This document shows positions 9,464-55,031 of a stretch of DNA of 64,000 bases, piece by piece (position 1 is the stretch's first letter; each line of letters starts with the position of its first letter). The stretch is from positions 8,857-72,856 of the forward strand of contig JBBSET010000008.1 of the NCBI GenBank assembly GCA_038239485.1. The letters are read 5' to 3'. The notes below the pieces were generated by a model. That model was not told where the DNA came from. It searched no databases and saw nothing but the letters and a program-made list of their open reading frames with translations. This stretch comes from Propionibacteriales bacterium (GTDB lineage: Bacteria; Actinomycetota; Actinomycetes; Propionibacteriales; Nocardioidaceae). The translations under genes were made by a program, and so were the position numbers.

Positions 9464-10914
9464 GGGGCGACCTCGACCAGGTCGGTGCCGAGCAGGTCTG
9501 CGGCGGCCCGCAGCTCCGGGAGCAGGTCACCGATACCCAGCGCCCAGTGATGCGAGATCCCGGTGGCACTCCACTGGTCGGTCCACTCGCCCGGGTCGCA
9601 ACCGAAGTCGACTCGCGAGGTGGTGTTGCCGATCTGGAGCAGTGGGCCGGGGACGACGTTGCCCGTAGACGCCACGAAGCGATAGGACCCGTCGCGCTGC
9701 TGCGCGATCCCGAAGGTCGTCACCGGGCCATGCCGCACGTCGAACTCGACCGACACACCCCAGCCGCGTTTGCCGTGGTAGACGCCCAGCCCCCGCAGCA
9801 GCGGTCGGCCGTCGCTGATGGCCAGATGCGCGGGGCCGTCGTGGCCCATCTCGACGACGCCGTCGTCGAAGTTCAGCGCCTGTAGCTCGGTGAACGAGCC
9901 GCCGCCCCCGAGCCGGTCGACGACCAGCATCGCCAACGACGTCCGCAGCTCGTACTCGCCGACCGCTGGGACTCCGCGGGCGGTGAGGAGGGAGGCGCCG
10001 AGGATCATGCCCGCTCCGAGGCGCTCGTGCTGCTCGCCCTCGAGTCCGCGGTGGTAGTAGGCGAGGCTGTCGAGGCCGAAGTCCTCCACCAGCTGGTCGA
10101 GGCCGAGCGAGACCTTGGCGCCCCAGCGGAAGTCCTCGGTCCGGACGGTCCCGTCGAGCTGGAAGACCTCGCGGGCGAGCCCCATCCGCTGCTCGACCTC
10201 CTCGTCGGTGACGGCCGCGACACGCACCCGCAGGTCGTCGAACTCGAGCACCTCCATGTGACCGCCGAAGTTGGCTGTGACCAGGGTGAGGTCGGTCGAC
10301 ACGTCGAGCATGCCGGGGTACAGGTGGCCCATTAGCCCGTGCCGCCCGTGCCGCAACACCCCGCGCACACCGGCGGCCTTGATCCAGCGGGCGATCCTGG
10401 CCCAGGCGCGCTCGTCGTCGAGGTATCCCGACACCGACCGGAACGGGATCCCGCACCGCAGGAACGCATTGGCCATCTCCGGCACCGGACAGGCACCGCA
10501 GTACGCCAGCCACTGGCCGGTGTCGAAGCTGGCGTGGTCCATCGACGTCGTGGGCTGCAGGTTGATCAGCAGCATCGGCGCGTCGCTGCGCTGGGCTACG
10601 GGAATGAGCATCGAGGCGGTCATGTAGGTCGTCAGGAACCCGACGATGAGGTCACAGCCCGCCACGCGAAGCTGCTCCGCGGCGCGGGCGCCGTCCTCGG
10701 CGTCGGAGATGAAGCCGACGTCGACGACCTCGCAGTCCATCGCCTGGATCCGCTCGGCGACTCGCCGGCTCGACGCTTGGAGCTGGGGAAGCAGGTCGGG
10801 GAACTGGGGCCAGTAGGCGCCGAGACCACCGGCGACGAGTCCTACCTTGGTCGTACGGCCGGTGACACGGGTCAGGCCGGAACCTGATGTCGCCGTCACA
10901 GCGGGGTCGGGCAT
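9460..10914 (-). CDS. L-fucose/L-arabinose isomerase family protein
   Basis: 484 aa. The N-terminal region (KVGLVAGGLGAYWPQF...) and the overall length fit the arabinose/fucose isomerase superfamily. The gene is embedded in the rhamnose operon. Confidence 0.7.
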   Translation of the reverse strand: MPDPAVTATSGSGLTRVTGRTTKVGLVAGGLGAYWPQFPDLLPQLQASSRRVAERIQAMDCEVVDVGFISDAEDGARAAEQLRVAGCDLIVGFLTTYMTASMLIPVAQRSDAPMLLINLQPTTSMDHASFDTGQWLAYCGACPVPEMANAFLRCGIPFRSVSGYLDDERAWARIARWIKAAGVRGVLRHGRHGLMGHLYPGMLDVSTDLTLVTANFGGHMEVLEFDDLRVRVAAVTDEEVEQRMGLAREVFQLDGTVRTEDFRWGAKVSLGLDQLVEDFGLDSLAYYHRGLEGEQHERLGAGMILGASLLTARGVPAVGEYELRTSLAMLVVDRLGGGGSFTELQALNFDDGVVEMGHDGPAHLAISDGRPLLRGLGVYHGKRGWGVSVEFDVRHGPVTTFGIAQQRDGSYRFVASTGNVVPGPLLQIGNTTSRVDFGCDPGEWTDQWSATGISHHWALGIGDLLPELRAAADLLGTDLVEVAP

Positions 10915-17409: not shown

Positions 17410-17727
17410 CCGGGACGCCTACCCGCAACTCGACGGCAGGGCGCTGACCGACGCGCTCTGCTGCGGATGTCCGTGGACCGTGCCCGGGCGGCTCAGACCC
17501 GTGCTCCCTGCGGTCGGGGCAGCGTGCCACCGTTTCGGTGGACTGCCAGGCAGCGACAGGTATCAATGACGCTCAGCAACGACTCTTCCTATCAACGTCA
17601 ACGTCTCACACCCATAAACCGTTGACAAAGCCTGAGACCGCAGGCACGGTTACTAGCAGTCACCGCGTCGGCCACGTCGAGGTGACATATACGCGCGCAG
17701 CTCGGGCGCTTGTCGAGGGAGGCAGAC

Positions 17728-18132
17728 GTGGTCGCAGGTCGATTGCCGGTGGACGACGACATCGCGGCCGTGCTCGTGACGATCAGCGAGCCCGGGGCCG
17801 ATCCGGAGCGCCTCGACGAGCTCACGTTGATGCTTCGTGGCGAGCTGATGGAGATTGCCGCCGACGTCCGGCCTGTGTCGGGTGGCGAGGCGCCCCCGGG
17901 TACCCGGGCGATCGACATCGCGACGGTCGGTGCGCTCCTCGTCGCCGTCAAGGGGTCGGTGGAGTCGGTCAACGCCATCGTGTCGGCGGTCCGCTCCTGG
18001 CTCCGGCGCGGGACCACGCCGCGCGTCGTCGAGCTGACGATCGCCGGTACGACGCTGCGCCTCGACGCCGCGAGCGAGCAGCAACAGCAGCAGCTTGTCG
18101 ACGAGTTCGTACGCGCCGTCCGAGCTGGCTGA
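17728..18132 (+). CDS. EACC1-like (effector-associated constant component) small protein
   Basis: 134 aa from GTG 17728, with GGGAGG 6 nt upstream; the ORF track starts at TTG 17710. The layout is an acidic helix (ERLDELTLMLRGEL), then PPGTRAIDIATVGALLVAVKGSVESVNAIVSAVRSWLRRG (hydrophobic hairpin ending in WLRR), then VVELTIAGTTLRLDAAS and a C-terminal helix. This matches my recollection of the EACC1 family found next to caspase or trypsin effectors. Confidence 0.6.
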   Translation: MVAGRLPVDDDIAAVLVTISEPGADPERLDELTLMLRGELMEIAADVRPVSGGEAPPGTRAIDIATVGALLVAVKGSVESVNAIVSAVRSWLRRGTTPRVVELTIAGTTLRLDAASEQQQQQLVDEFVRAVRAG

Positions 18133-18138
18133 GGTGCC

Positions 18139-20370
18139 ATGGCCAACCAACGCAAGGCCCTCGTCGTCGCGACCGACCGCTATGCGGACCCGTCGTTGCG
18201 GCAGCTCGCGGCGCCCGCCGCGGACGCGGCGGCGCTCGCCGAGGTCCTGTCGGCACCTGATCTCGGCGCGTTCTCGGTCGACCTGCTGACCAACGCCCAG
18301 TCCTGGGAGGTCGACGGGGCGGTCGAGACGCTCTTCACCGAGAGCGACGCCTCAGACCTGCTGCTCCTGCATTTCTCCTGCCACGGCATCAAGGACGAGC
18401 GCGGCGAGCTCTTCCTCGCCGCGAGCAACACGGTCCCGAACCGGCTGATGTCGACCGCGGTCGAAGCCGCTCAGGTCAGTAGGCTGATGCAACGCAGCCG
18501 GGCCCAGCGGATCGTGCTGTTGCTGGACTGCTGCTACGGGGGGGCCTTCGAGCGTGGCATGGTCGCGCGGGCGGCGGGCGACGTGGACGTGGCCGACCAG
18601 TTCTCGCAGACATCGCTTGCGGCGGGGCGCGGTCGAGTGGTGATCACCTCGTCCAGCGCGATGGAGTACGCCTTCGAGGGCGCCCAGCTGACCGACAGCC
18701 GCAAGCCCACGCCCTCGCTCTTCACCGGTGCCCTGGTCGAGGGAATCCGCACCGGCGAGGCCGACCGCGACCAGGACGGCCAGGTCGCGCTGCACGAGCT
18801 GTACGACTACGTGCACGACAAGGTCCGACAGCAGACCCCGAACCAGACACCGAGCAAGTGGGAGTTCGGCGTCCAAGGGGACTTGTTCGTCGCTCGGAAC
18901 CCGCGCCGTCGCATCGTGGCCGCGCGGCTGCCGACCGAGCTGGTCCGGCTGACTGAACACCCCACCACGCCGATGCGGCTCGCCGCCGTTCTCGAGCTCG
19001 AGCAGCTCGCGGTCGGCTCCGATCTCCCCGTGGCTGCCGGAGCGCGCGTCAGGCTCGGCGAGCTCGAGAACGACGACAGCCGCCGGGTGTCCCTCGCGGC
19101 GACGGACGCCCTGCGCCGAACCTCGGTCCGGGTCACTCCCGAGGCCGTCGACACGGGTGAGGTGGCGTCCGGGCAACCCGTGCATCTCAACGTCAAGGTT
19201 GAGGGAAGCCCGCTCGCGCTCGCTTCGGAGGTCAGCTCGTCGCTCGAACGCCTCGACGCCCGCATCGAGGGCCACACCCTGCGCATCTCGGTCCGAACTG
19301 CCGAACCCGGGCCCCTCGACGGAGCCATCCGGCTCAGCGGACCCGCCGGCGAGGCGAGCGTCACGATCCGCGGCGTCGTCGTCGCCGGCGCTCGGACCCC
19401 GACCCGAACCCTGCTCACCGAGCCCACGACGACCGAGCCCAGAGCCACCCGGCCGACTACGACCGAGCCCACCACGACCGAGCCCACCACGACCGAGCCC
19501 ACCACGACCGAGCCCACCACGACCGAGCCCACCACGACCGAGCCCAGGGCCACCGACCAGCAGGCCGGCGTGGCAGGCAACCGTGAGCTCGCCGCGGTAC
19601 TCATGGTCGCCGGTTCGGTGGCGATGGCGCTGTCGTTCATCCTGGTGGGCAGCGGGGCTCTCGCTGACTCGTCGAACAATCTGCACATGAACCCGTCAAC
19701 CAGGAATGTCTGGCTGCTGGGACTCCCGATGGCCGCGTTCGCCGCAGCGCCGCTGCTCTTCCGTCCCGGCATCAGCCGCTCCCACGGGATCGCCGTCGCT
19801 CAGGGGATCGCGCTCGCGTCAGCACTGTGGAGCTGGGTGCTCGTCGTCCGTGTCGTCGTACCAGCGATCTACGTCGACGGGCTTGGGACGACCCTGCGGG
19901 GTATCTTCGTCACCGCCCTCTGGCTCCGCCTGCTCGCCGCGGTGGCCTTCACCCTCGTCAGCGCGGTTCTCGTCGAGCGGTCGGAGGCTGCTCGGGTGCC
20001 ACCGCGGCTACGCAGCGACGCACGCGCGCTGCTCGGCGCGGTCATCGTCTTGGGCGGTGCCATGGTGCTCCCGATCGGGCTCCAAAGCGATGGGTACACG
20101 GCCGCCCAGGTCGCGGGTGGCTGGGCGCAGGCGGCAGTCTTCTGGGTGGTGATCCTGCCGCTGGCAGTCATCCGGCTCACGCCGGCTCAGCGCGAGGCCG
20201 TACTGATCTTCATCGTGGCGTTCACCGTCTTCGCCGGAGCACGAGCGGTCAGCGTGTCCGGCAGCCACGGCTTCTTCCAGACGGCAACCGGTGCCGGTCT
20301 CGTCATGCTCGCCTGCCTGCTCATCGGTATCGCTGTCAGCCAGGTCCCGACGGGCGCCCGGACGCCATGA
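18139..20370 (+). CDS. Caspase-family (peptidase C14) protein fused to a helical repeat, a beta-rich segment, a TTEP tandem-repeat linker and a ~8-TM C-terminal membrane domain
   Basis: 743 aa. The catalytic dyad context is LLLLHFSCHG (His82, nt 18382-18384) and VLLLDCCYGG (Cys131/132). A DRDQDG EF-hand-like loop and a HEAT/ARM-like segment (RLAAVLELEQLA...DDSRRVSLAATDALRR) follow. The TTEP repeats span aa ~430-470 and eight hydrophobic helices run from aa ~483 to the end. The gene starts 6 nt after the EACC1-like stop. Confidence 0.85.
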   Translation: MANQRKALVVATDRYADPSLRQLAAPAADAAALAEVLSAPDLGAFSVDLLTNAQSWEVDGAVETLFTESDASDLLLLHFSCHGIKDERGELFLAASNTVPNRLMSTAVEAAQVSRLMQRSRAQRIVLLLDCCYGGAFERGMVARAAGDVDVADQFSQTSLAAGRGRVVITSSSAMEYAFEGAQLTDSRKPTPSLFTGALVEGIRTGEADRDQDGQVALHELYDYVHDKVRQQTPNQTPSKWEFGVQGDLFVARNPRRRIVAARLPTELVRLTEHPTTPMRLAAVLELEQLAVGSDLPVAAGARVRLGELENDDSRRVSLAATDALRRTSVRVTPEAVDTGEVASGQPVHLNVKVEGSPLALASEVSSSLERLDARIEGHTLRISVRTAEPGPLDGAIRLSGPAGEASVTIRGVVVAGARTPTRTLLTEPTTTEPRATRPTTTEPTTTEPTTTEPTTTEPTTTEPTTTEPRATDQQAGVAGNRELAAVLMVAGSVAMALSFILVGSGALADSSNNLHMNPSTRNVWLLGLPMAAFAAAPLLFRPGISRSHGIAVAQGIALASALWSWVLVVRVVVPAIYVDGLGTTLRGIFVTALWLRLLAAVAFTLVSAVLVERSEAARVPPRLRSDARALLGAVIVLGGAMVLPIGLQSDGYTAAQVAGGWAQAAVFWVVILPLAVIRLTPAQREAVLIFIVAFTVFAGARAVSVSGSHGFFQTATGAGLVMLACLLIGIAVSQVPTGARTP
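19426..19545 (+). repeat. 15-bp in-frame tandem repeat (ACCACGACCGAGCCC = TTTEP): five perfect copies (19471-19545) plus about three degenerate copies upstream
   Basis: Read directly from the sequence. It encodes EPTTTEPRATRPTTTEPTTTEPTTTEPTTTEPTTTEPTTTEP between the soluble and membrane parts of the caspase protein. Confidence 0.95.
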
Positions 20371-22208
20371 GAATGCCCTGGCGGTCGAGAACACCACGCG
20401 AGCCGAGGTCGCGCTACCGGTCCAGCCTGCTGTGGCGCGTCTACGACGGGGTGTCGACGTGGGCCGACCGCCAGCGCGGCTGGGACCGGTATCCGCTGCC
20501 GATCGGCCTGGCGGTGCTGATCGGGCTTCGCAACGAGCTGCGCCGCCACAACCTGCACGACACGAACCTGCTGCCGACGGTCGATCTGCCGCCGCTGGGC
20601 CCGCCCCCCGGCGACGACACGACGCGCACCGTCGACGGCAGCTACAACGACCCCCAGTCGCCGCGGACGGGGATGGCTGGTGCTCGCTTCGGCCGCAATG
20701 TGCCGCTCGACCGGGTCACTGCCGACACCGCCGCCACGATCCTCGACCCGAACCCGCGAGAGGTCAGTCGGCGCCTGCTCACGCGGCACGAGTTCCAACC
20801 CGCGACGTCCATCAACGTCATCGCGGCCGGCTGGCTGCAGTTCATGATCAAGGACTGGTTCAGCCACGGTCCCGGCGACGCCGACAAGCCGTGGCGGCTG
20901 CCCCTGTCAGCAGACGACGACTGGCCACAGCGGCCGATGCTGGTGCCGAGCACCGTCCCCGACCCGACCAGGCCGGCAGGCTCGGACGGGCCGCCGACCT
21001 TCGCCAACACGCTCACCCACTGGTGGGACCTGTCGTCGATCTACGGCACGTCGGAGCAGGCGCAGGCGGCCTTCCGCTCCGGAACCGACGGCAAGCTGCT
21101 GATAGCACCCGGCGGGATCATCCCGCTGCCGTCCGACGACCCGGCGACCGACCCGACCCGCCAACCCGGGTTCTGGGTCGGGCTGGGCATGCTGGCCAGC
21201 CTGTTCGCGCACGAGCACAATGCGATCTGCGACCGGATCCGGCACGACTTTCCGCGCTGGTCCGACGACGAGGTCTTCGAGCGGGCTCGACTCGTCAACG
21301 CCGCGGTCGTAGCCAAGATCCATACCGTCGAATGGACCCCCGCGATCATCGCCCACCCGACCACCAAGGTGGCGATGCGCGCCAACTGGTTCGGCATCGA
21401 GGGCGAGCGGCTGCACCGCCTCTTCGGCCGGCTCAGCTCGAGTGAGGTGATCAGTGGGATTCCCGGTTCGCCGAGGGAGCAGTACGGGGTCCCGTACTCC
21501 CTGACAGAGGAGTTCGCGGCCGTCTACCGGATGCACCCCCTGCTGCCGGACGACTTCCGGATCAAGACGGCCGCAACCAGCGGACAGCCTCGCGAGCTCG
21601 ACTTCACGCAGCTCGCCGGACCAGCGAGCCGCGAGGTCTTCGGGCAGTCATCGCTGTCGGACCTGTTCTACTCGTTCGGAACCGCCTACGCGGGAGCGGT
21701 GGTCCTCAACAACTATCCGCGCGGACTCCAGCACTTCATCCGCCCCGACAACGGGATGCCGATGGACATCGCCGCCGTCGACATCTTGCGCATCCGCGAA
21801 GGTGGCGTACCCCGCTACAACGAGTTCCGCCGGCTGCTGAGACTTCGTCCGGCGCGGGACTTCGAGGACCTGACCCAGGACACTCGCCTCGCCGCCGAGG
21901 TGAGCGAGGTGTACGGCGGCGACATCGAGAAGGTCGACCTGATGATCGGGCTGTTCGCCGAGAAGCGGCCCGAGGGCTTCGGCTTCAGCGACACCGCCTT
22001 CCGCATCTTCATCCTGATGGCCAGCAGGCGGCTCAACAGCGACCGCTTCTTCACCAGCGACTACGATCCACGGGTGTACACCACGGCGGGAGTGGCCTGG
22101 ATCGACGACGCAACGATGAGCACGGTGCTACGCCGTCACTGCCCTGACCTGGCGCACCGCCTGAATGCCAAGGCGAATGCCTTCCAGCCCTGGCCCGGGA
22201 CCCCCTGA
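20367..22208 (+). CDS. Haem peroxidase-cyclooxygenase superfamily protein, plant alpha-dioxygenase (PIOX)-like fatty-acid oxygenase
   Basis: 613 aa from ATG 20367, which overlaps the caspase stop (ATGA). The ORF-track N-terminal extension from 19827 is spurious. The protein aligns by eye with plant alpha-DOX along its length: YPLPIGLAVLIGLRNELRRHNL, DGSYNDPQSP..GARFGRN, AAGWLQFMIKDW, LFAHEHNAICD, ARLVNAAVVAKIHTVEWTP, MRANWFG and EEFAAVYRMHPLLPD. Confidence 0.85.
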   Translation: MRMPWRSRTPREPRSRYRSSLLWRVYDGVSTWADRQRGWDRYPLPIGLAVLIGLRNELRRHNLHDTNLLPTVDLPPLGPPPGDDTTRTVDGSYNDPQSPRTGMAGARFGRNVPLDRVTADTAATILDPNPREVSRRLLTRHEFQPATSINVIAAGWLQFMIKDWFSHGPGDADKPWRLPLSADDDWPQRPMLVPSTVPDPTRPAGSDGPPTFANTLTHWWDLSSIYGTSEQAQAAFRSGTDGKLLIAPGGIIPLPSDDPATDPTRQPGFWVGLGMLASLFAHEHNAICDRIRHDFPRWSDDEVFERARLVNAAVVAKIHTVEWTPAIIAHPTTKVAMRANWFGIEGERLHRLFGRLSSSEVISGIPGSPREQYGVPYSLTEEFAAVYRMHPLLPDDFRIKTAATSGQPRELDFTQLAGPASREVFGQSSLSDLFYSFGTAYAGAVVLNNYPRGLQHFIRPDNGMPMDIAAVDILRIREGGVPRYNEFRRLLRLRPARDFEDLTQDTRLAAEVSEVYGGDIEKVDLMIGLFAEKRPEGFGFSDTAFRIFILMASRRLNSDRFFTSDYDPRVYTTAGVAWIDDATMSTVLRRHCPDLAHRLNAKANAFQPWPGTP

Positions 22209-22229
22209 CCGCTTTCAGCGCGACCCCGC

Positions 22230-23906
22230 TCAGGTCGGGATGACGCTGCCGCCCGCCGTCGTCCGGTCGCCCACCCGGATGGTGAGACGCGCTGTCGAAC
22301 CCAGCACCGGCAGCTTCTGAGCGACCGCGGGCAGCGGCACCGAGCACAGACGCACACCGTCGACCAGCTCGAACGCGACCGGCGCCCGCTGGTCCGCAGG
22401 CAGCCCGTCGCTGATCGGGTCGAGCTGGTCGTTGACACCGCCGACCTGGCTGACCCAGGCGACCCGCGCCTGTAGGCCCTTGCCGTCCTCGTTGGGACCG
22501 ACATCCACGACCAGCGAGTCGGCCCAGTCGGGGACCTGCTCGAGGTGCTCGGCGAAGCGGAACGCGTTACCGCGCTCCACCAGCTTGAAGACCTTCATCG
22601 TGAGCACGTAGCGCAGCCGCCCGGCGTGGCGCTGAGGAAGCTCGGTCTCACCGCGCTCGCGGGCGAGCTCGGCCTCGTGACCGGCGTCGAGCAGGACTGT
22701 CGTGACCAGTGGCACGGGGGTGTCGGGGGAGTCCACGTGCCGGCGCAGCTCGTCGTTGATCTGGATCGGGCACCAGTGCTCGGCCTGCTGCTCGCTGATC
22801 ACCACCGACATGCCGCGAATGGCCAGCCGGACGTCGGCCTGCCATACCGGCCACTGTTGCTCGGGCGGGAGGTTGCCCATGTCACGCGGGTAGGCAGGCA
22901 GCCCGTCCAGGGCCACGCTGACCTCCCAGCGGCCGAACAGGAACCGACGCAGGTTCTGGTATCCCTCCTCGGAGTTGACCTCCCCGTAGGACCCCGAGTG
23001 CGACTTGTAGACATAGGCGCGATGGGCGCGGCGGACGTACGCGTGCTCGATCCTGACCAGACCGTCGCTCTTCGGCCCGACGACCATGCGCGACAGGCCG
23101 AAGTCCTTCGGGTCGGTGCCGATCAGGCAGAAGATGTCAGACGGAGCGAAGACGGCATCGGGGATCTCTTGGGGGTCCCAGCCGGAGCCGGCCGACGGCA
23201 CGTCCCCGAAGGTCTTGCCCGGCGTCAGGTAGCCATACATCTTCGGCGGCGAGAAGATGTCCGCCCCCGCCGGGCCGAAGGCCTGCTCGGCCCAGTCCAG
23301 CGCCTTCACGTCGAAGGTGATGCCGCCGTGCGGCGTGCCGTAGGTGAAGAGCTTCGCCACCAGCTGCTTGGCCTTGATCCGGCCATCGCTCTCGCAGACC
23401 TTCTGCATCATCGACCGAACCACGAGGCCACCCATGGAGTGCGCCACGAGGAACACCTTGTCCGCACCGGTCTTCTCCCGGACCGTCAGGATCAGGTCGT
23501 ACAGGCCGCTCGCGGCGGTCTCGATGTCGAAGCCATCCGACGTCACCCGCTGGTGCAGACCGGTCCACAGCCGCTCCAGCACCCCTTCGTGCTTCGGCGA
23601 GACGAAGGTGGTTGCCGCCTGGTCGTAGAAGCGGTACACCCACAGCGAGCGCTGCGGGACCGAGCCGTCCGCCGCGTCGTTCAGGTACTGCTGCTGGTCG
23701 CCGCTGACCAGGAGCCGGTAGTTCTCGTCGGTGATGAGCCGAAGCATCGGCCCTTCGAACTGGTAGAACATCGGGTCCCCGTCCCCACCGACCCGCACAT
23801 GGGTGGCGCCGCGGTTGAACCCGTAGAAGGGGTCGTCGACCTGGCTGTCGATGCCGGCTGTCGCCCCGGCGTAGCCGCGCACGTACACGATCGGCAGCCT
23901 GTCCAT
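22230..23906 (-). CDS. Alpha/beta-hydrolase, lipase/PGAP1-like (GxSxG) with a ~290-aa uncharacterised beta-rich C-terminal domain
   Basis: 558 aa with the nucleophile elbow FLVAHSMGGLV, GTPHGG, and HSGSYGEVNSEEGYQNLRRFLFG (probable catalytic His region). There is no signal peptide. The gene converges on the oxygenase gene with a 21-bp gap. Confidence 0.75.
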   Translation of the reverse strand: MDRLPIVYVRGYAGATAGIDSQVDDPFYGFNRGATHVRVGGDGDPMFYQFEGPMLRLITDENYRLLVSGDQQQYLNDAADGSVPQRSLWVYRFYDQAATTFVSPKHEGVLERLWTGLHQRVTSDGFDIETAASGLYDLILTVREKTGADKVFLVAHSMGGLVVRSMMQKVCESDGRIKAKQLVAKLFTYGTPHGGITFDVKALDWAEQAFGPAGADIFSPPKMYGYLTPGKTFGDVPSAGSGWDPQEIPDAVFAPSDIFCLIGTDPKDFGLSRMVVGPKSDGLVRIEHAYVRRAHRAYVYKSHSGSYGEVNSEEGYQNLRRFLFGRWEVSVALDGLPAYPRDMGNLPPEQQWPVWQADVRLAIRGMSVVISEQQAEHWCPIQINDELRRHVDSPDTPVPLVTTVLLDAGHEAELARERGETELPQRHAGRLRYVLTMKVFKLVERGNAFRFAEHLEQVPDWADSLVVDVGPNEDGKGLQARVAWVSQVGGVNDQLDPISDGLPADQRAPVAFELVDGVRLCSVPLPAVAQKLPVLGSTARLTIRVGDRTTAGGSVIPT

Positions 23907-23922
23907 GACAACCTTCTCTCGC

Positions 23923-24618
23923 TCACGCCTCGCGCAGTCTGCGCTCGTACCACAGGGTCGTCACGACGTAGCCGCTGAGGAAGCCGACGACGAAGTAGAG
24001 CACCAGCAAGGACCCGGAGATCACCAGGGCGGTGTCACTGGGCTGGCCAGCGCCCGAGTCCTCCATCCCGCGTGCGACTGCGGTGACGAGGCCGCCGAGC
24101 GGAGCCCCCAGGTGCGTGAGCTCCACCAGGCCGGCGCCCAGCAGGAGCTTGGTCAGCCAGTCGCTGACCTCGGCAAGGTTCGAGCTCTGCGTGAACTGGG
24201 CCACCGGCGCGGACTCGCGGATCTCGAGGCCACCCTGGGCGCCGGACGGCGATGCCGACTCGTCGACCATCAGGCCGCCTTCAGTGGCGGTCGTCGTCCC
24301 TGAGGTCGCAGGGATCGTGGTCGTCGTCGTGGCTGTGGTGTCGGTCTGGGTCTGGGTGACGACTTTGGGGGCGTCGGCCTTGTGCCGGACCTCGCCGGAG
24401 GACACCGCTCGGGGGACGCCGAACAAGAAGCCGAGCAGGCAGCCCGTGACGAAGGCCGCGAATGCGGTCAGCAGGCCGACGCCGAGATAACGGACAGATG
24501 GCCCGGGCGTGGCGAACGCGTAGGCGGCGACCAGGACGAGGCCGACACCGAGCACAGCACCCGCAGTCATGAGCAGCCACTCGCTGACTCTCAAGGACCG
24601 CACCGGCGCCTCGCTCAC
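23923..24618 (-). CDS. Four-TM membrane protein with a Thr-rich central loop, function unknown
   Basis: 231 aa. Two N-terminal TM helices are followed by the low-complexity stretch TQTQTDTTATTTTTIPATSGTTTATEGG, then LAEVSDWLTKLLLGAGLVEL and a final TM helix. It lies 16 nt upstream of the lipase-like gene on the same strand. Confidence 0.6.
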   Translation of the reverse strand: MSEAPVRSLRVSEWLLMTAGAVLGVGLVLVAAYAFATPGPSVRYLGVGLLTAFAAFVTGCLLGFLFGVPRAVSSGEVRHKADAPKVVTQTQTDTTATTTTTIPATSGTTTATEGGLMVDESASPSGAQGGLEIRESAPVAQFTQSSNLAEVSDWLTKLLLGAGLVELTHLGAPLGGLVTAVARGMEDSGAGQPSDTALVISGSLLVLYFVVGFLSGYVVTTLWYERRLREA

Positions 24619-24726
24619 CTCGTGACCCTGTGGTGGGTCCGAAAAACACGATAGGGCTCGCTGGAGGGCGCGTAAAGAGCTGCGTCTAAGAGATCGCCTT
24701 CAGTGTCTGTGAGGGAGGGACGACTG

Positions 24727-24936
24727 CTACTGCTCGGCCTGCCGCTGGCTGGGGATGCCGGCAAGCAGTTCTCTGACCTCGGACTCGCGGTAGCGGCGGT
24801 GGCCACCCAGCGTGCGGATGGAGCTGAGCTTGCCCGCTTTGGCCCAGCGGGTGACGGTCTTCGGGTCGACGCGGAACATGGCCGCGACCTCGGCGGGCGT
24901 TAGCAACGGTTCTGAGTCGGTGGGTCGTGCATTCAC
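24727..24936 (-). CDS. bldC: BldC-type MerR-like/excisionase-family DNA-binding developmental regulator
   Basis: 69 aa reading EPLLTPAEVAAMFRVDPKTVTRWAKAGKLSSIRTLGGHRRYRESEVRELLAG, nearly identical to Streptomyces BldC as I recall it. Confidence 0.85.
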   Translation of the reverse strand: MNARPTDSEPLLTPAEVAAMFRVDPKTVTRWAKAGKLSSIRTLGGHRRYRESEVRELLAGIPSQRQAEQ

Positions 24937-25169
24937 GAGAACTCCTTGTGTGTTGTAGCCGGCGGACCCATAACGATACCCACCGCTCTCGTATCATGTC
25001 GTACGGTAACGTCGTGCCGCCCCCCGTGGCGAGTCTCAGTCAGACTCCAGGCGTAGGAAGTTTGGGGTATCCCGACTCAAAGGGTAGCCGAGCGGCCTTA
25101 AAAAGGCTCGCTAAATGTCCGCCGACATACGACAAAAATCCATCTGGCGTGGCAAATACCCAAATTTAA

Positions 25170-25988
25170 CTAATTGGCGCGCTCAAAACCGTTGACAACC
25201 CGCCAGCGCTCCTCGAACGACCGGTACGCCCCGCCGGCGGTCGCGAGGTCGCCGCGGCTGATGGCGTCGAGCGCCTGATGAATGTCGCGCGCGGAGTGGT
25301 CGGATGCCAACTGGTCGCCCATCAGCTGGGCCACGCCCGCGTAGTCGATCTCGACCCAGCTGTCCTCGTGGAAGGACTCCAGCCACGACTCCAGTCCCGC
25401 GAGCTCGTCGAGCAGGTCCGCATCGTCGATGACTTTGGCCAGCGTGCGTTGGGCGAATGCCGCCCGTCTGCGCGCGTCGAGCATCCTGGTGCGGTACCTG
25501 ACGCTGGCGCCGGCACCGTCGTCGTAGCGGGCCCGCTCGTCCTCGACGACCAGCACGAACCAGGTGCGCGGCACCCCCCAGGTGACCTGCCGGATGTGTG
25601 GCGCGGCTCGAGGGTTGTCCCGCCGCCACCGCAGGAACTGCTCGTCGGCGAGGGCGAACGACTCCGGCGGGACGATCAGGCTGACCGCGGCGCTGCCGAG
25701 GCTGTCGATCAGCGAGGTCATCGACAACCATGAGCGCAGCGGCATGTCGACCGGACAGAAGAACGAACGGCCCTCTCGCCGGAGCACGTACACGTCGGAC
25801 TGGCGGACCGGTTCGATGGCGATCGTCGACGACGTGACCGCCCGCCGGATCACCGTGCGCTGCTCGGCCGCCAGCGTGGCGGCGCTGTCCTGGGGGTCGA
25901 CCTCGTCTGCGGCCAGCAGGTCGCGGAGGTCACGGCTGAGCGCCTGGAACGGCTCGTAGACCCGCAGATAGGACGGATACGGCAGCAT
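25170..25988 (-). CDS. Conserved actinobacterial hypothetical protein (bldC/vdh neighbour)
   Basis: ORF 25170..26171 would overlap the divergent vdh start. The internal ATG at 25988 ([14 protein letters not shown]...) gives 272 aa and a 135-bp divergent intergenic region. The position matches the hypothetical gene between bldC and vdh in Streptomyces. Confidence 0.65.
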
Positions 25989-26123
25989 GATCCAAACCCT
26001 ATCGAGGATCGCCCGGCCGACCCGGGGTCCGCGAGGGGTGCCCAACCCGACCGAGGCATATCGTGGAGCCAGCCGTGGCCGCCACCACCCATCGCGGCCC
26101 ACTTCTGGAGGAAGGTCACTACC

Positions 26124-27209
26124 GTGACCGACGAGACACGCCTCGCTGTCTTCGACGAGACCAGCGGACACGAACAGGTCATCTTCTGCCAGGACGAGGC
26201 CAGCGGGCTCCGAGCGATCATCGCGATCTACTCCACCGCTCTCGGCCCCGCGCTCGGGGGGACCCGCTTCTTCCCGTATGCCAGCGAGGCCGACGCCCTG
26301 CGCGACGCGCTGAACCTGTCACGCAGCATGGCCTACAAGAACGCCCTGGCGGGCCTCGACCTCGGCGGCGGCAAGGCGGTCATCATCGGCGACCCGGCCA
26401 CCCAGAAGACGGAGGCGCTGCTGCGCGCCTACGGCCGCTTCGTCCAGTCTCTCCACGGCCGCTACATCACCGCGTGCGACGTCGGCACGTTCAGTGCCGA
26501 CATGGACCTCGTTGCGCGCGAGTGTGACTACGTCACCGGCCGCAGCGTCGAGTACGGCGGCGCGGGTGACTCCAGCGTGCTGACGGCGTACGGACTGTTC
26601 CAGGGGATGCGCGCCGCGGCGGAGGTCGCCTGGGGCGAGCCCACGCTCAAGGATCGTCGCGTGGGTGTCGCCGGCGTCGGCAAGGTGGGGTTCCATCTCG
26701 TCGGGCACCTCGTCGACGACGGGGCCGACGTCGTGGTCACCGACATCAGCGAGCCGGCGGTGGCCAGGGCACTGGCCGCGTATCCGGGCGTCGACGTCGT
26801 GCGCGACGCTGCCGAGCTGGTCGAATCCGACATCGACGTGTTCGCCCCCTGCGCTCTGGGCGGTGCGATCAACGACGACAATGTCGAGGTGCTCAAGGCG
26901 GCCATCGTGTGCGGAGCGGCCAACAACCAGCTCGCGCACAGCGGCTTGGAGGACGTGCTGGCGCGGCGCGGCATCCTGTACGCCCCGGACTTCTGCGTGA
27001 ACTCGGGCGGGGTCATCCAGGTGGCCGACGAACTGGAGGGCTTCTCGTTCGAACGGGCCAAGACCCGCGCCACGGCGATCTACACGACCACCAAGCGGGT
27101 GCTCCAGGCCGCCGCCGACGGCGGCATCACCCCCGCGGTCGCCGCCGACCGGCTGGCCGAGGAGCGGATGGCGGCGGTGGGCCGACTGCGGGGACTGTGG
27201 CTGGAATGA
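26124..27209 (+). CDS. vdh: Glu/Leu/Phe/Val dehydrogenase family protein (valine/leucine dehydrogenase-like)
   Basis: 361 aa with the motifs [25 protein letters not shown] and GVAGVGKVG (NAD Rossmann fold). Confidence 0.85.
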
Positions 27210-50299: not shown

Positions 50300-51334
50300 A
50301 TGCCCATCGCGACGCCCGATGTCTATCACGCCATGCTCGAGAAGGCGAAGGCCGAGCAGTTCGCCTACCCCGCCGTCAACGTGACGTCGTCGCTGACCCT
50401 GCACGCTGCCCTGCGCGGGTTCGCTGAGGCAGGCAGCGACGGCATCGTCCAAGCGTCGACGGGCGGCGCTGAGTTCTGGTCGGGCACGACTGTCAAGAAC
50501 ATGGTGGCCGGATCACTCGCCTTCGCCGCCTTCGCCCGGGAAGCGGCAAAGGCGTACCCCGTCAACGTGGCGCTGCACACCGACCACTGCCCGAAGGACA
50601 AGCTGAACGACTTCGCCAAGCCGCTGCTGGAGATGTCACGCGACAAGGTCGCGGCGGGCGGGCTGCCCATCTTTCAGTCCCACATGTGGGACGGGTCGGC
50701 TGTTCCGGTCGAGGAGAACCTTTCCATCGCCAAGGAGCTGCTCGACATCGCCCGTGCTGCCAAGATCGTCCTCGAGATCGAGATCGGGGTGGTGGGAGGC
50801 GAGGAGGACGGCGTCGAGGGCGCGATCGACGACAAGCTCTACTCGACGCCGGAGGACGCCCTTCGCACGGTCGAGGTGCTCGGTCTCGGCGAGAACGGCC
50901 GCTACATGGTGGCGCTGACATTCGGGAACGTGCACGGTGTCTACAAGCCCGGCAACGTCAAGCTCCGCCCGGAGATCCTGAAGCAGGCCCAGGACGCGGT
51001 GGCCCAGAAGTACGGCCTCGACGACGGGGCCAAGCCCTTCGACCTGGTGTTCCATGGCGGGTCGGGCTCGCTGCTGGAGGAGATCCGGGAGGCCCTGGAC
51101 TACGGGGTGGTCAAGATGAACATCGATACCGACACCCAGTACGCGTTCACGCGCCCGGTCGCCGACCACATGTTCAAGAACTACGACGCCGTGCTGAAGG
51201 TGGACGGAGAGGTCGGCAGCAAGAAGTTCTACGACCCCCGATCGTGGGGCAAGTCGGCGGAAGCCGGAATGGCGGCCCGCGTCGTGACCGCGTGCGAGGA
51301 TCTGCGCTCAGCAGGTACGTCGCTGGGTCAATGA
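50300..51334 (+). CDS. fba: Class II fructose-bisphosphate aldolase
   Basis: 344 aa reading MPIATPDVYHAMLEKAK...YPAVNV, with HTDHC and FHGGSGS. Confidence 0.93.
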   Translation: MPIATPDVYHAMLEKAKAEQFAYPAVNVTSSLTLHAALRGFAEAGSDGIVQASTGGAEFWSGTTVKNMVAGSLAFAAFAREAAKAYPVNVALHTDHCPKDKLNDFAKPLLEMSRDKVAAGGLPIFQSHMWDGSAVPVEENLSIAKELLDIARAAKIVLEIEIGVVGGEEDGVEGAIDDKLYSTPEDALRTVEVLGLGENGRYMVALTFGNVHGVYKPGNVKLRPEILKQAQDAVAQKYGLDDGAKPFDLVFHGGSGSLLEEIREALDYGVVKMNIDTDTQYAFTRPVADHMFKNYDAVLKVDGEVGSKKFYDPRSWGKSAEAGMAARVVTACEDLRSAGTSLGQ

Positions 51335-51500
51335 ACAATGCGCTCAGCGGCAGTCACTGTCTTTGTGGGAAGCCAGGCTGAGGTGACGCGGCGTAGGTAA
51401 GGGGTGGAGACCGAGGCGAGTATCACTAAACGTACATATCGAAATACATGGAGTAATTAATTGATCCATCAGTGGACGTTCGCGGCGGGGGAAAGTCCAT

Positions 51501-51529
51501 TTGGGGATATGTGGGGACTGCGATAGAAT
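51501..51529 (+). promoter_or_regulatory. Candidate housekeeping-sigma promoter TTGGGG-17 nt-TAGAAT
   Basis: Hexamers at 51501-51506 and 51524-51529, about 40 nt upstream of ATG 51568, inside an unusually AT-rich intergenic stretch (51420-51475). Confidence 0.35.
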
Positions 51530-51567
51530 CCTCTGCACTTGCCCTCCCATGCTTTCCGGAGCTGAGA

Positions 51568-52893: not shown

Positions 52894-53033
52894 GCTTGAG
52901 TATCGGGGCCGTTCGTTCCCGATCTCCTGAATCTCGGCGGCAGCTGATTTTCGGGATCGGGAGCCTGTCCGCCCTCCCTCCCACCGGGGGAGATCGAGTG
53001 TCAGAACCGCCCGAACGTCGGCCGGACGACCGC

Positions 53034-54194
53034 TCAGAACGCTCGAGCGCTCGAACGTCGGCTTGACGACCGCTGTGCCGGCACCGGCCCGCGGCCGATC
53101 GCTTCGACATAAGCGGCGTCCAACCTGTCGACGACCGCTTTGGGGCTGAACAGCGTCTTGGCGCGAACTCGTCCTGCTGTGGACATATTGGCTGTGTCAC
53201 CGCTGTCGTTCAGCAGACGCTCGCATTCCGCGAGCAACCCGCGCATGTCTCCCAACGCGACAATGCTGCCTGCGGCGGGAAGATCGCCAAGAGTCATGAT
53301 GTCTCGTACGCCGTTGACGTCTGTGGCCACTACGGGACGCCCAACCGACATCGCCTCGGCCACCACGACCGGAGTTCCTTCATACCGGGAGGGCAGCACG
53401 ACGAGATCACAGGCCCACATCCAGCGCGGGACGTCTCGGTCTTCCCCTACGGCCCGGATCGTGCGGCCCCACTCGGTCGGCGCCAAGGCTTCCAGCTCAG
53501 TGGTGTCTCCGGGTCCCACCAGGACGAGCTCAGAGTCGGCAGGGTGGTGCTTCTCCCATGCCGCCACCAGGAGGTCCTGTCCCTTCTGCCGCGCAACCCT
53601 GCCTACACATAGGACCATGTGCTGCGCCTTCACCCCGAGCAGGTCCCGGTACTGTTGCCGCGTCGCCTCATCGACCTGGGTGAACAGACTGGTATCCACA
53701 GCGACGCCGATGACTCGCCCCTCGGTCGTGACCCCTGCGCTTTGGCCCTCGTCGATCTCGTCGGTGCAGTTGGTCACCAGGACGTCGGTTCGCCGGCCGG
53801 CGAAACGCTCCCACGCCGACAGCGCCCGACGAAAGCCATCCTCGTCGCGCAGGTCGAAGGACCATGAATGCGGCTGGTAGACGACGGGGACACTCTTGGC
53901 TCTGACCGGCAGTCGCCCCACGAAGCCGGCCATGAACGAATGTAAATGCATTACGTCGGGTTTGAATTCTTCGATTGCCCGGCGGAGCTCCATCACGGCC
54001 GGAGCATAGGTGCTTGCACGGCGTCGCTTGAGGCTCCACTGCCGGTAATCGACGTCCACCACAGGCGGGAATATGGGGGGTGACAGCAAACCAACGATAT
54101 GCCCGCGCTCGTTCTGTTCGGCGGCGAATTCGCGGATGAGACTGACGACACCGCCCCAACTGACCTCAGAGACGTGCAGAATATGCATGCGCAT
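53034..54194 (-). CDS. Glycosyltransferase family 4 (GT-B fold)
   Basis: MRMHILHVSEVSWGGV is the N-terminus, from ATG 54194; the ORF track starts at TTG 54215. The C-terminal domain carries PSRYEGTPVVVAEAMSVGRPVVATDV (EX7E-type motif). Confidence 0.85.
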   Translation of the reverse strand: MRMHILHVSEVSWGGVVSLIREFAAEQNERGHIVGLLSPPIFPPVVDVDYRQWSLKRRRASTYAPAVMELRRAIEEFKPDVMHLHSFMAGFVGRLPVRAKSVPVVYQPHSWSFDLRDEDGFRRALSAWERFAGRRTDVLVTNCTDEIDEGQSAGVTTEGRVIGVAVDTSLFTQVDEATRQQYRDLLGVKAQHMVLCVGRVARQKGQDLLVAAWEKHHPADSELVLVGPGDTTELEALAPTEWGRTIRAVGEDRDVPRWMWACDLVVLPSRYEGTPVVVAEAMSVGRPVVATDVNGVRDIMTLGDLPAAGSIVALGDMRGLLAECERLLNDSGDTANMSTAGRVRAKTLFSPKAVVDRLDAAYVEAIGRGPVPAQRSSSRRSSARAF

Positions 54195-55022: not shown

Positions 55023-55031
55023 CTCACGACC

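What the first reader, a model, noticed from the sequence alone, without database searches (positions are those of the whole stretch)
17728..22208. Tightly coupled EACC1-like / membrane-anchored caspase / alpha-dioxygenase-like haem oxygenase operon: candidate undescribed conflict or cell-death system
Seen in sequence:
- Three co-directional genes are packed with a 6-nt gap (18132/18139) and an ATGA start/stop overlap (20367-20370). They sit behind a ~300-bp non-coding, lower-GC leader.
- Gene 1 has the layout I associate with EACC1: an acidic helix, a PGT..hydrophobic hairpin ending in WLRR, then a short beta segment and a C-terminal helix.
- Gene 2 keeps the caspase His/Cys dyad contexts (SCHG, DCCYGG) and carries a polytopic membrane domain.
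- Gene 3 aligns along its length with plant alpha-dioxygenase / PIOX, including the radical-forming Tyr and proximal His (VYRMH).

Established knowledge: EACC1 was defined by Kaur, Iyer, Burroughs and Aravind (2021) as a constant partner of variable effectors such as caspases and trypsins in predicted bacterial apoptosis-like counter-invader systems. Alpha-DOX and COX enzymes oxygenate free fatty acids to hydroperoxides or oxylipins and are immune-induced in plants and animals.

Inference: the protease and the fatty-acid oxygenase act together. Either lipid (per)oxidation is a membrane-damaging, ferroptosis-like effector, or an oxylipin or aldehyde is a signal released on caspase activation. 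From memory I know of no described prokaryotic defence or PCD system that couples a caspase to a COX/alpha-DOX-type oxygenase. I cannot search to confirm this.
Basis: partly seen in the sequence, partly recalled or inferred. Interest (0 to 1): 0.88.

Follow-up and report, generated by a model that had tools for sequence, protein, structure and literature searches.

The report
EACC1–caspase death module plus passenger dioxygenase
The three genes are real and correctly identified, but the first two are an already-described bacterial protease-activated pore-toxin module, and the fatty-acid dioxygenase-like gene joins them in only one narrow lineage, so this is probably not a new three-part death system.

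Summary
Three co-directional genes encode an EACC1 protein (17728-18132), a caspase with about eight C-terminal membrane helices (18139-20370) and an alpha-dioxygenase-like haem protein (20367-22208). The 6-nt gap and the ATGA overlap are both present.

EACC1 plus caspase is the known two-gene "System 4" of Kaur et al. 2020. Evans et al. (bioRxiv 2025) showed the caspase cleaves EACC1, releasing a pore-forming fragment. Membrane-anchored caspase partners are already reported as common.

The dioxygenase is not part of that system:
- 0 of 80 metagenomic caspase loci carry it, while 70 of 80 carry EACC1 just upstream.
- 0 of 36 other homologue loci (44-78% identity) carry a caspase or EACC1.
- A syntenic sister locus (L037) has EACC1, caspase and the same convergent hydrolase, with 12 nt where the dioxygenase would be.
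- Only one close relative (L035, 83% identity) shares the arrangement.

Most likely this is a known death module with a lineage-specific, probably co-transcribed passenger gene. A clade-restricted functional link cannot be excluded (about 10-15%).

The parts
17410..17727 (+). Non-coding leader of 318 bp. It holds a conserved promoter/operator-like block at 17619-17664 (TTGACA 17622-17627, inverted repeat ACCG-N6-CGGT 17637-17650, TAGCAGT 17654-17660) and a Shine-Dalgarno GAGGGAGG at 17715-17722.
   Evidence: Sequence read. GC is 0.65 overall with a trough of 0.48-0.54. The block is conserved with the sister locus L037 although the upstream gene there is different. There is no Rfam match and no consensus sigma-70 hit, so promoter function is inferred.
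17728..18132 (+). EACC1 protein, 134 aa. Predicted to be a latent pore-forming effector: an N-terminal beta-alpha-beta segment, a flexible loop (aa 51-65, GGEAPPGTRA), then a hydrophobic strand/helix ending in WLRR, two strands and a C-terminal helix.
   Evidence: Pfam PF19953 at E = 5.5e-5, 23.5 bits against a gathering score of 23.6. Homologues sit immediately upstream of the caspase in 70 of 80 loci. The 50-sequence alignment A2 has invariant V47, P56, W91 and Q120. A single-sequence AF2 model gives pLDDT 74.6 with a low-confidence loop at 53-65.
18139..20370 (+). Caspase of the EACC1-associated type, 743 aa. Caspase domain aa 5-238 (His82, Cys131/132). Conserved middle region aa ~260-420. 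Pro/Thr-rich linker from a 15-nt tandem repeat (nt 19417-19546). Polytopic membrane domain aa ~485-733 (nt ~19591-20337).
   Evidence: Peptidase_C14 at 68.9 bits and NF047832 at 168.7 bits against a cut-off of 140. PADLOC caspase at E = 8.8e-10. Most homologues share only the first 55-65% of the protein and then carry different C-terminal domains such as WD40, beta-propeller, TolB-like or MalE. Tandem repeat found. Hydropathy analysis. AF2 model of the membrane domain gives pLDDT 83.9 and pTM 0.82 with nine helices, with no PDB fold match (best E = 0.099).
20367..22208 (+). Alpha-dioxygenase-like haem protein (An_peroxidase family), 613 aa, or 611 aa from the ATG at 20373. It overlaps the caspase stop codon by 4 nt. 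Judged a lineage-specific addition, not a core part of the module.
   Evidence: PF03098 at 332 bits. Rice and Arabidopsis alpha-DOX at E ~1e-116. Tyr387/His390 and Arg554/555 are conserved, and Lys162 sits at the distal-His position. More than 7,900 homologues, mostly actinobacterial. Neighbourhood results.
22230..23906 (-). Convergent lipase-like alpha/beta hydrolase (DUF676/PGAP1-like N-terminal half plus an unassigned C-terminal half), 558 aa. It is a conserved neighbour in the sister loci and was not shown to belong to the module.
   Evidence: Pfam DUF676 and PGAP1 at E ~5e-6. Weak PDB hits to bacterial lipases around the AHSMGG nucleophile elbow. 81% identical in L037 and 67% in L035, at the same position. 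Absent from the 80 other caspase loci.
23923..24618 (-). Membrane protein of 231 aa with a Thr-rich segment, encoded just upstream of the hydrolase on the minus strand. Context only.
   Evidence: ORF listed. No Pfam, NCBIfam or PADLOC hit. No homologue in L037.

Best explanation
The locus holds a standard two-gene EACC1-caspase cell-death/defence module with one extra gene attached.

**The module (17728-20370).**
- Shown elsewhere: in a Ktedonobacter system, the partner caspase cleaves the small EACC1 protein between an autoinhibitory N-terminal piece and a C-terminal piece. The C-terminal piece then oligomerises and permeabilises membranes, killing the cell. The region C-terminal to the caspase acts as the sensor (Evans et al. 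2025).
- Inferred here: on an unknown trigger, the caspase (His82/Cys131-132) cuts EACC1 in or near the flexible stretch around Asp46 to residue 65. The C-terminal fragment, which carries the conserved hydrophobic segment ending in WLRR, forms pores.
- Also inferred: the eight-to-nine-helix membrane domain of this caspase holds the protease at the membrane and is the likely sensor.

**The third gene (20367-22208).**
- It belongs to a very large, mostly actinobacterial family related to plant and cyanobacterial fatty-acid alpha-dioxygenases.
- It keeps the radical-forming Tyr, the proximal His and the carboxylate-binding Arg pair. It most likely oxygenates free fatty acids, though activity is untested and the distal His is Lys.
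- It normally lives in quite different gene neighbourhoods.
- In the small lineage of the window and L035 it lies between the caspase gene and a convergent lipase-like gene. It is probably co-transcribed with the module. Comparative evidence gives no support for it being a working part of the death system.
For: **Module identity**
- NF047832 'caspase, EACC1-associated type' scores 168.7 bits against a cut-off of 140.
- EACC1 profile hit at E = 5.5e-5.
- EACC1 homologues sit about 30 nt upstream of the caspase in 70 of 80 metagenomic loci.
- The architecture is a constant caspase plus middle region with a variable C-terminus. This matches 'System 4' of Kaur et al. 2020, which reports that at least 33% of caspase partners carry TM helices.

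**Mechanism**
- Evans et al. 2025.
- The AF2 model of the window EACC1 shows N-terminal beta-alpha-beta, a low-confidence loop, then beta-alpha-beta-beta-alpha. This fits their autoinhibited monomer.

**The dioxygenase is not part of the system**
- None of the 34 genome loci of its homologues has a caspase, EACC1 or hydrolase within 8 kb. The weak L034 hit is not a caspase.
- L036 (76% identity) and L120 (70%, coupled instead to a short-chain dehydrogenase by a 4-nt overlap) have none.
- None of the 80 caspase loci (590 kb in total) has it.
- The membrane-type caspase loci L037, L038, L121-123 and L124 have none.
- L037 is syntenic with the window: EACC1 74% identical, caspase N-domain 93%, hydrolase 81%, followed by DUF8083, ELFV dehydrogenase, purM and purF. 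Only 12 nt separate its caspase stop from the hydrolase stop.

**Dioxygenase family and chemistry**
-.
- Kim et al. 2021 place actinobacterial alpha-DOX homologues with biochemically active cyanobacterial enzymes.

**Other**
- Codon usage of all genes is native, which argues against a recent foreign insertion.
Against: - The 4-nt ATGA overlap between caspase and dioxygenase is kept in L035. L035 is substantially diverged from the window: dioxygenase 83%, caspase about 63-67%, hydrolase C-terminus 67-69%. The junction has therefore been stable for some time and implies co-expression.
- The window, L035 and L037 are about equidistant. I cannot tell whether the dioxygenase was gained in two lineages' ancestor or lost in L037.
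- One distant membrane-caspase locus (L039) has a different catalase-An_peroxidase fusion gene 3 kb away, across three opposite-strand genes. By my rough estimate this is compatible with chance (about 10-15%), but it is not nothing.
- The EACC1 Pfam score is 0.1 bit below the gathering score.
- Nothing here tests cleavage, pore formation, the trigger or the enzyme activity.
Confidence: 0.75

Rival explanations
1. In the lineage of the window and L035, the dioxygenase has been recruited as a working third component. It could act as a second effector (lipid oxidation or aldehyde production at the membrane once the caspase fires), as a generator of a lipid signal sensed by the caspase's membrane domain, or as a caspase substrate.
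For: The genes are co-directional with a 4-nt start/stop overlap, and no terminator-like site lies between them. The same junction is kept in L035 despite 17-37% protein divergence. Both the caspase's C-terminal domain and the enzyme's presumed substrates are membrane-associated. A lipase-like gene that could supply free fatty acids lies directly downstream.
Against: There is no independent recurrence. None of the 80 metagenomic caspase loci, nor the further membrane-type caspase loci examined (L037, L038, L121-124), has the gene; L039 has only a different An_peroxidase fusion 3 kb away. None of 36 other dioxygenase loci has a caspase. The syntenic L037 module is complete without it. The dioxygenase forms 4-nt overlaps with unrelated upstream genes elsewhere, such as a dehydrogenase in L120, so overlap alone is weak evidence in high-GC actinobacteria. 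The published EACC1 mechanism needs only two proteins.
Confidence: 0.12
2. The functionally relevant partner of the caspase, besides EACC1, is the convergent lipase-like alpha/beta hydrolase (22230-23906). It would be a second protease-activated effector, by analogy with the caspase-activated hydrolase zymogens of Evans et al. The dioxygenase would either be irrelevant or act on fatty acids released by the hydrolase.
For: The hydrolase directly abuts the module in all three related loci, with or without the dioxygenase in between. Alpha/beta hydrolases are an established class of caspase-activated death effector. Other lipase-type genes lie near membrane-type EACC1-caspase pairs: a convergent 1065-aa patatin-like gene in L124 and a GDSL lipase 7 kb away in L038.
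Against: The hydrolase is on the opposite strand. It is absent from the 80 other caspase loci. At 558 aa it is much larger than the ~32-kDa hydrolase described. It has no PADLOC hit. The adjacency is confined to three related genomes, so it may be plain synteny.
Confidence: 0.06
3. The EACC1-caspase pair here is not an anti-phage system. It would be a membrane-stress or developmental cell-death switch of a chromosomal core region, with the dioxygenase and lipase as ordinary lipid-metabolism neighbours.
For: The flanks are housekeeping genes: a sugar ABC transporter with LacI on one side, and ELFV dehydrogenase, purM, purF and an M20 peptidase on the other. No other defence genes were recognised among the six proteins scanned against PADLOC (17710-26171). 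The window has no tRNA, and neither the caspase nor the dioxygenase has a relative in viral contigs. Kaur et al. link the system to a multicellular habit. Evans et al. note fusions to DnaK that hint at stress roles.
Against: The only experimentally studied EACC1 system responds to a phage protein. The left flank differs between the window and L037, as expected for a variable, exchangeable islet.
Confidence: 0.15

Closest known systems
EACC1-caspase two-gene conflict system ('System 4' of Kaur, Burroughs, Iyer & Aravind, eLife 2020; mechanism in Evans et al., bioRxiv 2025, K. racemifer EACC1-KrAvs12)
   Same: A small 5' EACC1 gene is followed within a few nucleotides by a gene whose product starts with a caspase domain carrying an intact His/Cys dyad. 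That product then has a conserved middle region and a variable C-terminal region. It passes the NCBIfam model for this caspase type, and the actinobacterial host is typical.
   Different: The C-terminal region is an eight-to-nine-helix membrane domain with no Pfam or PDB relative, rather than an Avs/STAND, WD40 or propeller sensor. Membrane-bearing versions are nevertheless reported as common. An extra alpha-dioxygenase-like gene overlaps the caspase stop codon, which is not described for this system. The trigger is unknown, and cleavage and pore formation are untested here.
Plant and cyanobacterial fatty-acid alpha-dioxygenases (rice 4KVJ, Arabidopsis 4HHR; CalDOX/LepDOX of Kim et al. 2021)
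   Same: The alignment covers nearly the full length (E ~1e-116). The catalytic Tyr and proximal His (YRMH) and the Arg pair that binds the fatty-acid carboxylate (SRRL) are all present. The protein belongs to the An_peroxidase fold.
   Different: The distal haem histidine is Lys162 here. Across 120 relatives this position is Arg or Lys in 98 and His in only 8. No actinobacterial member has been characterised in the papers I read. In other lineages its neighbours are things like DyP-type peroxidases or a short-chain dehydrogenase, not defence genes.
Caspase-activated alpha/beta-hydrolase effector modules (Evans et al. 2025, Lysobacter capsici)
   Same: A caspase-family protease gene lies next to a lipase-like alpha/beta hydrolase gene.
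   Different: Here the hydrolase is convergent, 558 aa rather than ~300 aa, is found only in three related loci, and was not shown to be homologous to the published effector.
Bacterial gasdermin-protease systems
   Same: The logic is the same: a protease removes an inhibitory piece from a small protein, which then forms membrane pores and kills the cell.
   Different: The pore former belongs to an unrelated protein family, and there is no sequence relationship.

Membership tests
EACC1-caspase two-gene system | Small 5' gene encoding an EACC1 domain | tested here: met
   PF19953 at E = 5.5e-5, 23.5 bits, which is 0.1 bit below the gathering score of 23.6. 15 of 50 close family members hit the same profile at E <= 1e-3. 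Homologues occupy the position immediately upstream of the caspase in 70 of 80 loci. The conserved PPGxRA, hydrophobic Gly-containing segment and W91 motifs are present. I count this as met on profile plus conserved context, while noting the marginal score.
EACC1-caspase two-gene system | 3' gene with an N-terminal caspase domain of the EACC1-associated type and an intact catalytic dyad | tested here: met
   NF047832 at 168.7 bits against a cut-off of 140. PF00656 at 68.9 bits. His82 and Cys131/132 are present.
EACC1-caspase two-gene system | Constant caspase module followed by a variable C-terminal (sensor) region | tested here: met
   Most of the 120 best homologues cover only 55-65% of the query and then carry WD40, beta-propeller, TolB-like, MalE or other domains. 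Here the region is an eight-to-nine-helix membrane domain.
EACC1-caspase two-gene system | Caspase cleaves EACC1, and the C-terminal fragment forms membrane pores and kills the cell | not testable with these tools
   Known only from Evans et al. 2025 for another member. The AF2 model of the window EACC1 is compatible with their autoinhibited monomer.
Fatty-acid alpha-dioxygenase (alpha-DOX) family | Full-length An_peroxidase fold most similar to alpha-DOX rather than to COX or peroxidases | tested here: met
   PF03098 at 332 bits. Alpha-DOX structures score E ~1e-116 over residues 34-610, against E ~1e-18 for COX.
Fatty-acid alpha-dioxygenase (alpha-DOX) family | Catalytic tyrosine and proximal haem histidine (YRMH) | tested here: met
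   Tyr387 and His390 align with rice Tyr379 and His382. The motif is present in 119 of 120 relatives.
Fatty-acid alpha-dioxygenase (alpha-DOX) family | Distal haem histidine (rice His157) | tested here: not met
   Lys162 in FMIKDW aligns with the His of FMVHDW. Across relatives the position is Arg in 51, Lys in 47, His in 8 and Leu in 2. Kim et al. 2021 also note the distal His is only partly conserved in the wider family. I therefore call the protein 'alpha-DOX-like' rather than a confirmed alpha-DOX.
Fatty-acid alpha-dioxygenase (alpha-DOX) family | Arg pair that binds the fatty-acid carboxylate | tested here: met
   ASRRL (Arg554/555) aligns with the rice SRRL motif. It is present in 120 of 120 relatives. 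The carboxylate-binding role comes from my own knowledge of the plant enzyme structures.
Fatty-acid alpha-dioxygenase (alpha-DOX) family | 2-hydroperoxidation of free fatty acids | not testable with these tools
   This needs an enzyme assay.
Proposed three-gene EACC1/caspase/oxygenase system | The three genes co-occur across unrelated genomes | tested here: not met
   Only L035, a close relative, shares the arrangement. None of 36 other oxygenase loci and none of 80 other caspase loci do. The syntenic L037 lacks the oxygenase.
Proposed three-gene EACC1/caspase/oxygenase system | Location in a defence island | tested here: not met
   The flanks are a sugar transporter with LacI on one side and purF, purM and ELFV dehydrogenase on the other. 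PADLOC recognises only the caspase. The window has no tRNA, and there are no relatives in viral contigs. The left flank does differ from L037, so this is a small variable islet.

The most novel reading that the evidence does not exclude
In this small actinobacterial clade, a fatty-acid alpha-dioxygenase-like haem enzyme has been wired into a caspase/pore-toxin death operon. Protease activation at the membrane would then be coupled to enzymatic lipid oxygenation. The oxygenation could serve as a second membrane-damaging effector, or as a source of a lipid-derived signal sensed by the caspase's new membrane domain. This would be a prokaryotic parallel to oxylipin- or ferroptosis-linked cell death.
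Probability: 0.1. Interest if true: 0.75.

Novelty: new member of a known kind. Interest (0 to 1): 0.3.

Why it matters
If the plain reading is right, the locus is one more example of an already described and now mechanistically understood module.

It still has modest value in three respects:
- It documents a membrane-domain 'sensor' variant whose fold has no solved relative.
- It shows how an unrelated metabolic gene can be slotted, with translational coupling, into the tail of a death operon.
- It draws attention to a very large, uncharacterised actinobacterial family of alpha-dioxygenase-like proteins in which Arg or Lys replaces the distal haem histidine.

Only if the clade-specific coupling proved functional would it bear on the larger question of whether bacteria link programmed death to lipid oxygenation.

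Tried and rejected
- **Conserved partner of the dioxygenase.** I clustered ORFs from 35 homologue loci and found no universal neighbour. There are only lineage-specific ones: a DyP-type peroxidase in 7 loci, unannotated proteins, and a short-chain dehydrogenase in L120. Several of my ORF picks gave no Pfam hit and may be in the wrong frame.
- **Weak caspase-like hit in L034.** The tblastn hit (E = 0.017) lies in a different, unannotated protein next to a DyP peroxidase, not in a caspase.
- **Membrane domain as a query.** It returned one fragment only. The Foldseek search of its AF2 model against PDB gave nothing below E = 0.09. No family assignment resulted.
- **EACC1 structure with an alignment.** I used a single-sequence model instead.
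- **Exact look-ups.** The nearest named relatives of the dioxygenase are Motilibacter species at 67-70% identity.
- **Viral-contig scans.** Neither the caspase nor the dioxygenase found anything.
- **Rfam and promoter/terminator scans.** Nothing usable turned up.
- **Recent horizontal insertion of the dioxygenase.** I rejected this on composition, because GC3 and codon usage match the neighbours.
- **Gain versus loss.** The window, L035 and L037 are about equidistant, so I could not decide between the two.


Full report
**1. What is in the sequence**

The region holds three co-directional genes on the plus strand.
- Gene 1 runs 17728-18132. It starts at a GTG six bases after a strong ribosome-binding sequence, GAGGGAGG at 17715-17722.
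- Gene 2 starts at ATG 18139, six bases after the gene-1 stop, and ends at TGA 20368-20370.
- Gene 3 starts at ATG 20367, giving the ATGA overlap. A second in-frame ATG at 20373 is the start used for the database protein P0001. It ends at 22208.
- A convergent gene ends 21 nt later.
- The leader between the upstream LacI-family regulator and gene 1 is 318 bp. It has a 100-bp stretch at 48-54% GC in a 68% GC window.

**2. What the three proteins are**

Gene 1 (134 aa):
- It hits Pfam EACC1 at E = 5.5e-5 and 23.5 bits, 0.1 bit under the gathering score.
- The context is decisive. In 80 metagenomic loci found with the caspase, a homologue of gene 1 lies about 30 nt upstream of the caspase in 70.
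- The family alignment shows the expected motifs: a PPGxRA loop, a hydrophobic Gly-containing segment, and an invariant Trp.

Gene 2 (743 aa):
- It passes the NCBIfam model 'caspase, EACC1-associated type' at 168.7 bits against a cut-off of 140.
- It keeps His82 and Cys131/132.
- Its relatives share the first 55-65% (caspase plus a middle region) and then diverge into WD40, beta-propeller, TolB-like, MalE and other C-terminal domains.
- Here the C-terminal part is a Pro/Thr-rich linker, encoded by 8.7 copies of a 15-nt repeat, followed by a polytopic membrane domain.
- AlphaFold models that domain confidently as a nine-helix bundle with pLDDT 83.9 and pTM 0.82. It has no solved structural relative (best Foldseek E = 0.099).

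Gene 3 (613 aa):
- It is an An_peroxidase-family protein at 332 bits.
- Its closest solved relatives by far are the rice and Arabidopsis fatty-acid alpha-dioxygenases, at E ~1e-116 against ~1e-18 for cyclooxygenases.
- Tyr387/His390 (YRMH) and Arg554/555 (SRRL) are conserved.
- The distal histidine of the plant enzymes is Lys162. Across 120 relatives this position is Arg or Lys in 98 and His in 8.

**3. What is already known**

[quoted passage not shown] It has a constant EACC1, a constant caspase and about 50 alternative C-terminal domains. At least 33% of the caspase proteins carry TM helices.
- A 2025 preprint (Evans et al.) reconstituted one member. The caspase cleaves EACC1 at Asp49. The N-terminal piece is autoinhibitory. 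The C-terminal piece is toxic and permeabilises liposomes. The domains fused to the caspase are sensors.
- EACC1 is therefore the effector, not an adaptor for a caspase effector.
- My single-sequence model of the window EACC1 has beta-alpha-beta, a low-confidence loop at 53-65, then beta-alpha-beta-beta-alpha. This fits their description of an autoinhibited monomer.
- None of these papers mentions a peroxidase or dioxygenase. A literature search found no such system.
- Actinobacterial alpha-DOX homologues have been noted phylogenetically. They group with cyanobacterial enzymes that do have alpha-dioxygenase activity, and the distal His is 'partially conserved'.

**4. Is the trio a system?**

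From the dioxygenase side:
- The family is huge, with more than 7,900 hits at E <= 1e-10, mostly actinobacterial.
- In 34 genome loci with 44-78% identical homologues and up to 8 kb of flank, tblastn finds no caspase, EACC1 or hydrolase. One weak hit in L034 is not a caspase.
- L036 (76%) and L120 (70%) also have none. In L120 the gene overlaps an upstream short-chain dehydrogenase by 4 nt instead.
- Its most recurrent neighbour is a DyP-type peroxidase, in 7 of 35 loci.

From the caspase side:
- None of the 80 metagenomic loci (590 kb in total) has a homologue of the dioxygenase.
- Among homologues that share the membrane domain, L038, L121-123 and L124 have none.
- L039 has a different catalase-An_peroxidase fusion 3 kb away, behind three opposite-strand genes. 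With roughly 700 kb of caspase-flanking DNA examined, I estimate the chance of one such gene at about 10-15%. The estimate rests on an assumed one or two such genes per 8-Mb genome.

The most telling locus is L037. It carries the closest full-length caspase homologue on a 73-kb contig.
- It is syntenic with the window: EACC1 (74% identity), caspase (N-domain 93%), the same convergent hydrolase (81%), then DUF8083, ELFV dehydrogenase, purM and purF.
- Its caspase stop and hydrolase stop are 12 nt apart, with no dioxygenase between them.

Only L035, a 4-kb metagenomic contig, repeats the window's arrangement.
- It has the caspase, the ATGA overlap, a dioxygenase 83% identical, and the convergent hydrolase.
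- It shares the flanking gene as well, so this is shared ancestry, not independent recurrence.
- The three loci are about equidistant: caspase 62-67%, hydrolase C-terminus 67-73%. Gain versus loss cannot be polarised.

**5. Most likely mechanism**

The EACC1-caspase pair is a self-contained, protease-gated pore-toxin module.
- It is driven from its own leader. A TTGACA...ACCG-N6-CGGT...TAGCAGT block at 17619-17664 is conserved with L037 although the upstream genes differ.
- The caspase is tethered to the membrane by its C-terminal helix bundle, which is the candidate sensor.
- On activation it would cut EACC1 in the flexible stretch between the conserved D46-V47 and the PPGTRA loop, releasing the pore-forming C-terminal part.
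- These steps are inferred from the Ktedonobacter system. None was tested here.

The dioxygenase-like gene is probably co-transcribed, given the overlap and the absence of a terminator. It probably oxygenates free fatty acids. The comparative data give no reason to think it participates in the death pathway. It looks like a metabolic gene that landed, or survived, at the 3' end of the operon in one clade. Codon usage is native for all genes, so none of this looks like recent foreign DNA.

**6. Alternatives**

- A clade-restricted functional recruitment of the dioxygenase remains possible (about 0.1-0.15). The junction has been stable across substantial divergence, and all players are membrane- or lipid-related.
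- The convergent lipase-like hydrolase could be a second caspase-activated effector, because such hydrolase zymogens exist. It is, however, on the other strand, much larger, and absent from other caspase loci.
- The module may serve stress or developmental death rather than phage defence. It sits among housekeeping genes, and no other defence gene is recognisable among the six neighbouring proteins scanned.

**7. Verdict**

The domain calls are right. The 'undescribed three-gene conflict system' is not supported as a conserved system. The core is a new member of a known and now mechanistically characterised kind, with a lineage-specific passenger gene. Interest is modest at 0.3. It would be high only if the clade-specific coupling proved functional.

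Noticed in passing
window 22230-23906 (-) and 23923-24618 (-): A 558-aa lipase-like alpha/beta hydrolase (DUF676/PGAP1-like, AHSMGG elbow) with an unassigned ~230-aa C-terminal half is preceded by a Thr-rich membrane protein. The hydrolase abuts the caspase module in L037 and L035 too, while the membrane protein is missing in L037. Caspase-activated hydrolase zymogens are known, but homology to them was not tested.
   Followed up: partly
window 20367-22208, residue Lys162; relatives P0001-P0120: In this actinobacterial alpha-DOX-like family the distal haem histidine of the plant enzymes is replaced by Arg (51) or Lys (47) in 98 of 120 relatives. The catalytic Tyr, proximal His and Arg pair are nearly invariant. 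The consequence for haem activation is unknown.
   Followed up: partly
window 17619-17664; L037 ~9490-9530: A sequence block in the leader is conserved between the window and L037 although the upstream genes differ. It comprises TTGACA, an ACCG-N6-CGGT inverted repeat and TAGCAGT. It is a candidate promoter plus operator for the module.
   Followed up: partly
window 19417-19546: A 15-nt tandem repeat (8.7 copies, 86% matches) encodes the (T/P)TTEP linker between the cytoplasmic part and the membrane domain of the caspase. The linker is shorter and non-repetitive in L035, so its length is variable.
   Followed up: partly
window 19591-20337 (caspase aa 485-733): The membrane domain is modelled confidently (pLDDT 83.9) as a nine-helix bundle, but it has no Pfam family and no PDB fold match. 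A word-based search found only one fragment homologue, which suggests a fast-evolving, clade-specific domain.
   Followed up: yes
L039 10001-12654 and 15415-18471: In this distant relative the gene order is inverted, with the caspase first and EACC1 second, overlapping by 4 nt. A catalase-related/An_peroxidase fusion gene lies 3 kb away and appears frameshifted in the assembly.
   Followed up: partly
L003, L004, L014, L015, L017, L028, L034 (flanks of the dioxygenase homologue); L120 4237-6800: In other lineages the alpha-DOX-like gene repeatedly sits next to a DyP-type peroxidase, in 7 of 35 loci. In L120 it overlaps an upstream short-chain dehydrogenase by 4 nt. This hints at an oxidative lipid or aldehyde pathway of its own.
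   Followed up: partly
L124 3886-7083 (-); L038 13866-15824 (-): Other lipase-type genes lie near membrane-type EACC1-caspase pairs: a convergent 1065-aa patatin-like protein in L124 and a GDSL lipase 7 kb away in L038. This may be coincidence.
   Followed up: no
window 25170-26171 (-) versus 26124-27209 (+): The longest ORF of the DUF8083-like gene overlaps the start of the divergent ELFV dehydrogenase gene by 48 nt. The homologue in L037 is 292 aa, so the true start is probably an internal codon.
   Followed up: no
window ~51000-64000: A lower-GC stretch (61-65%) encodes what looks like a sulfated-polysaccharide cluster: two family-4 glycosyltransferases, a sulfatase, a formylglycine-generating enzyme, a sulfotransferase and a Wzz-like chain-length determinant.
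   Followed up: no
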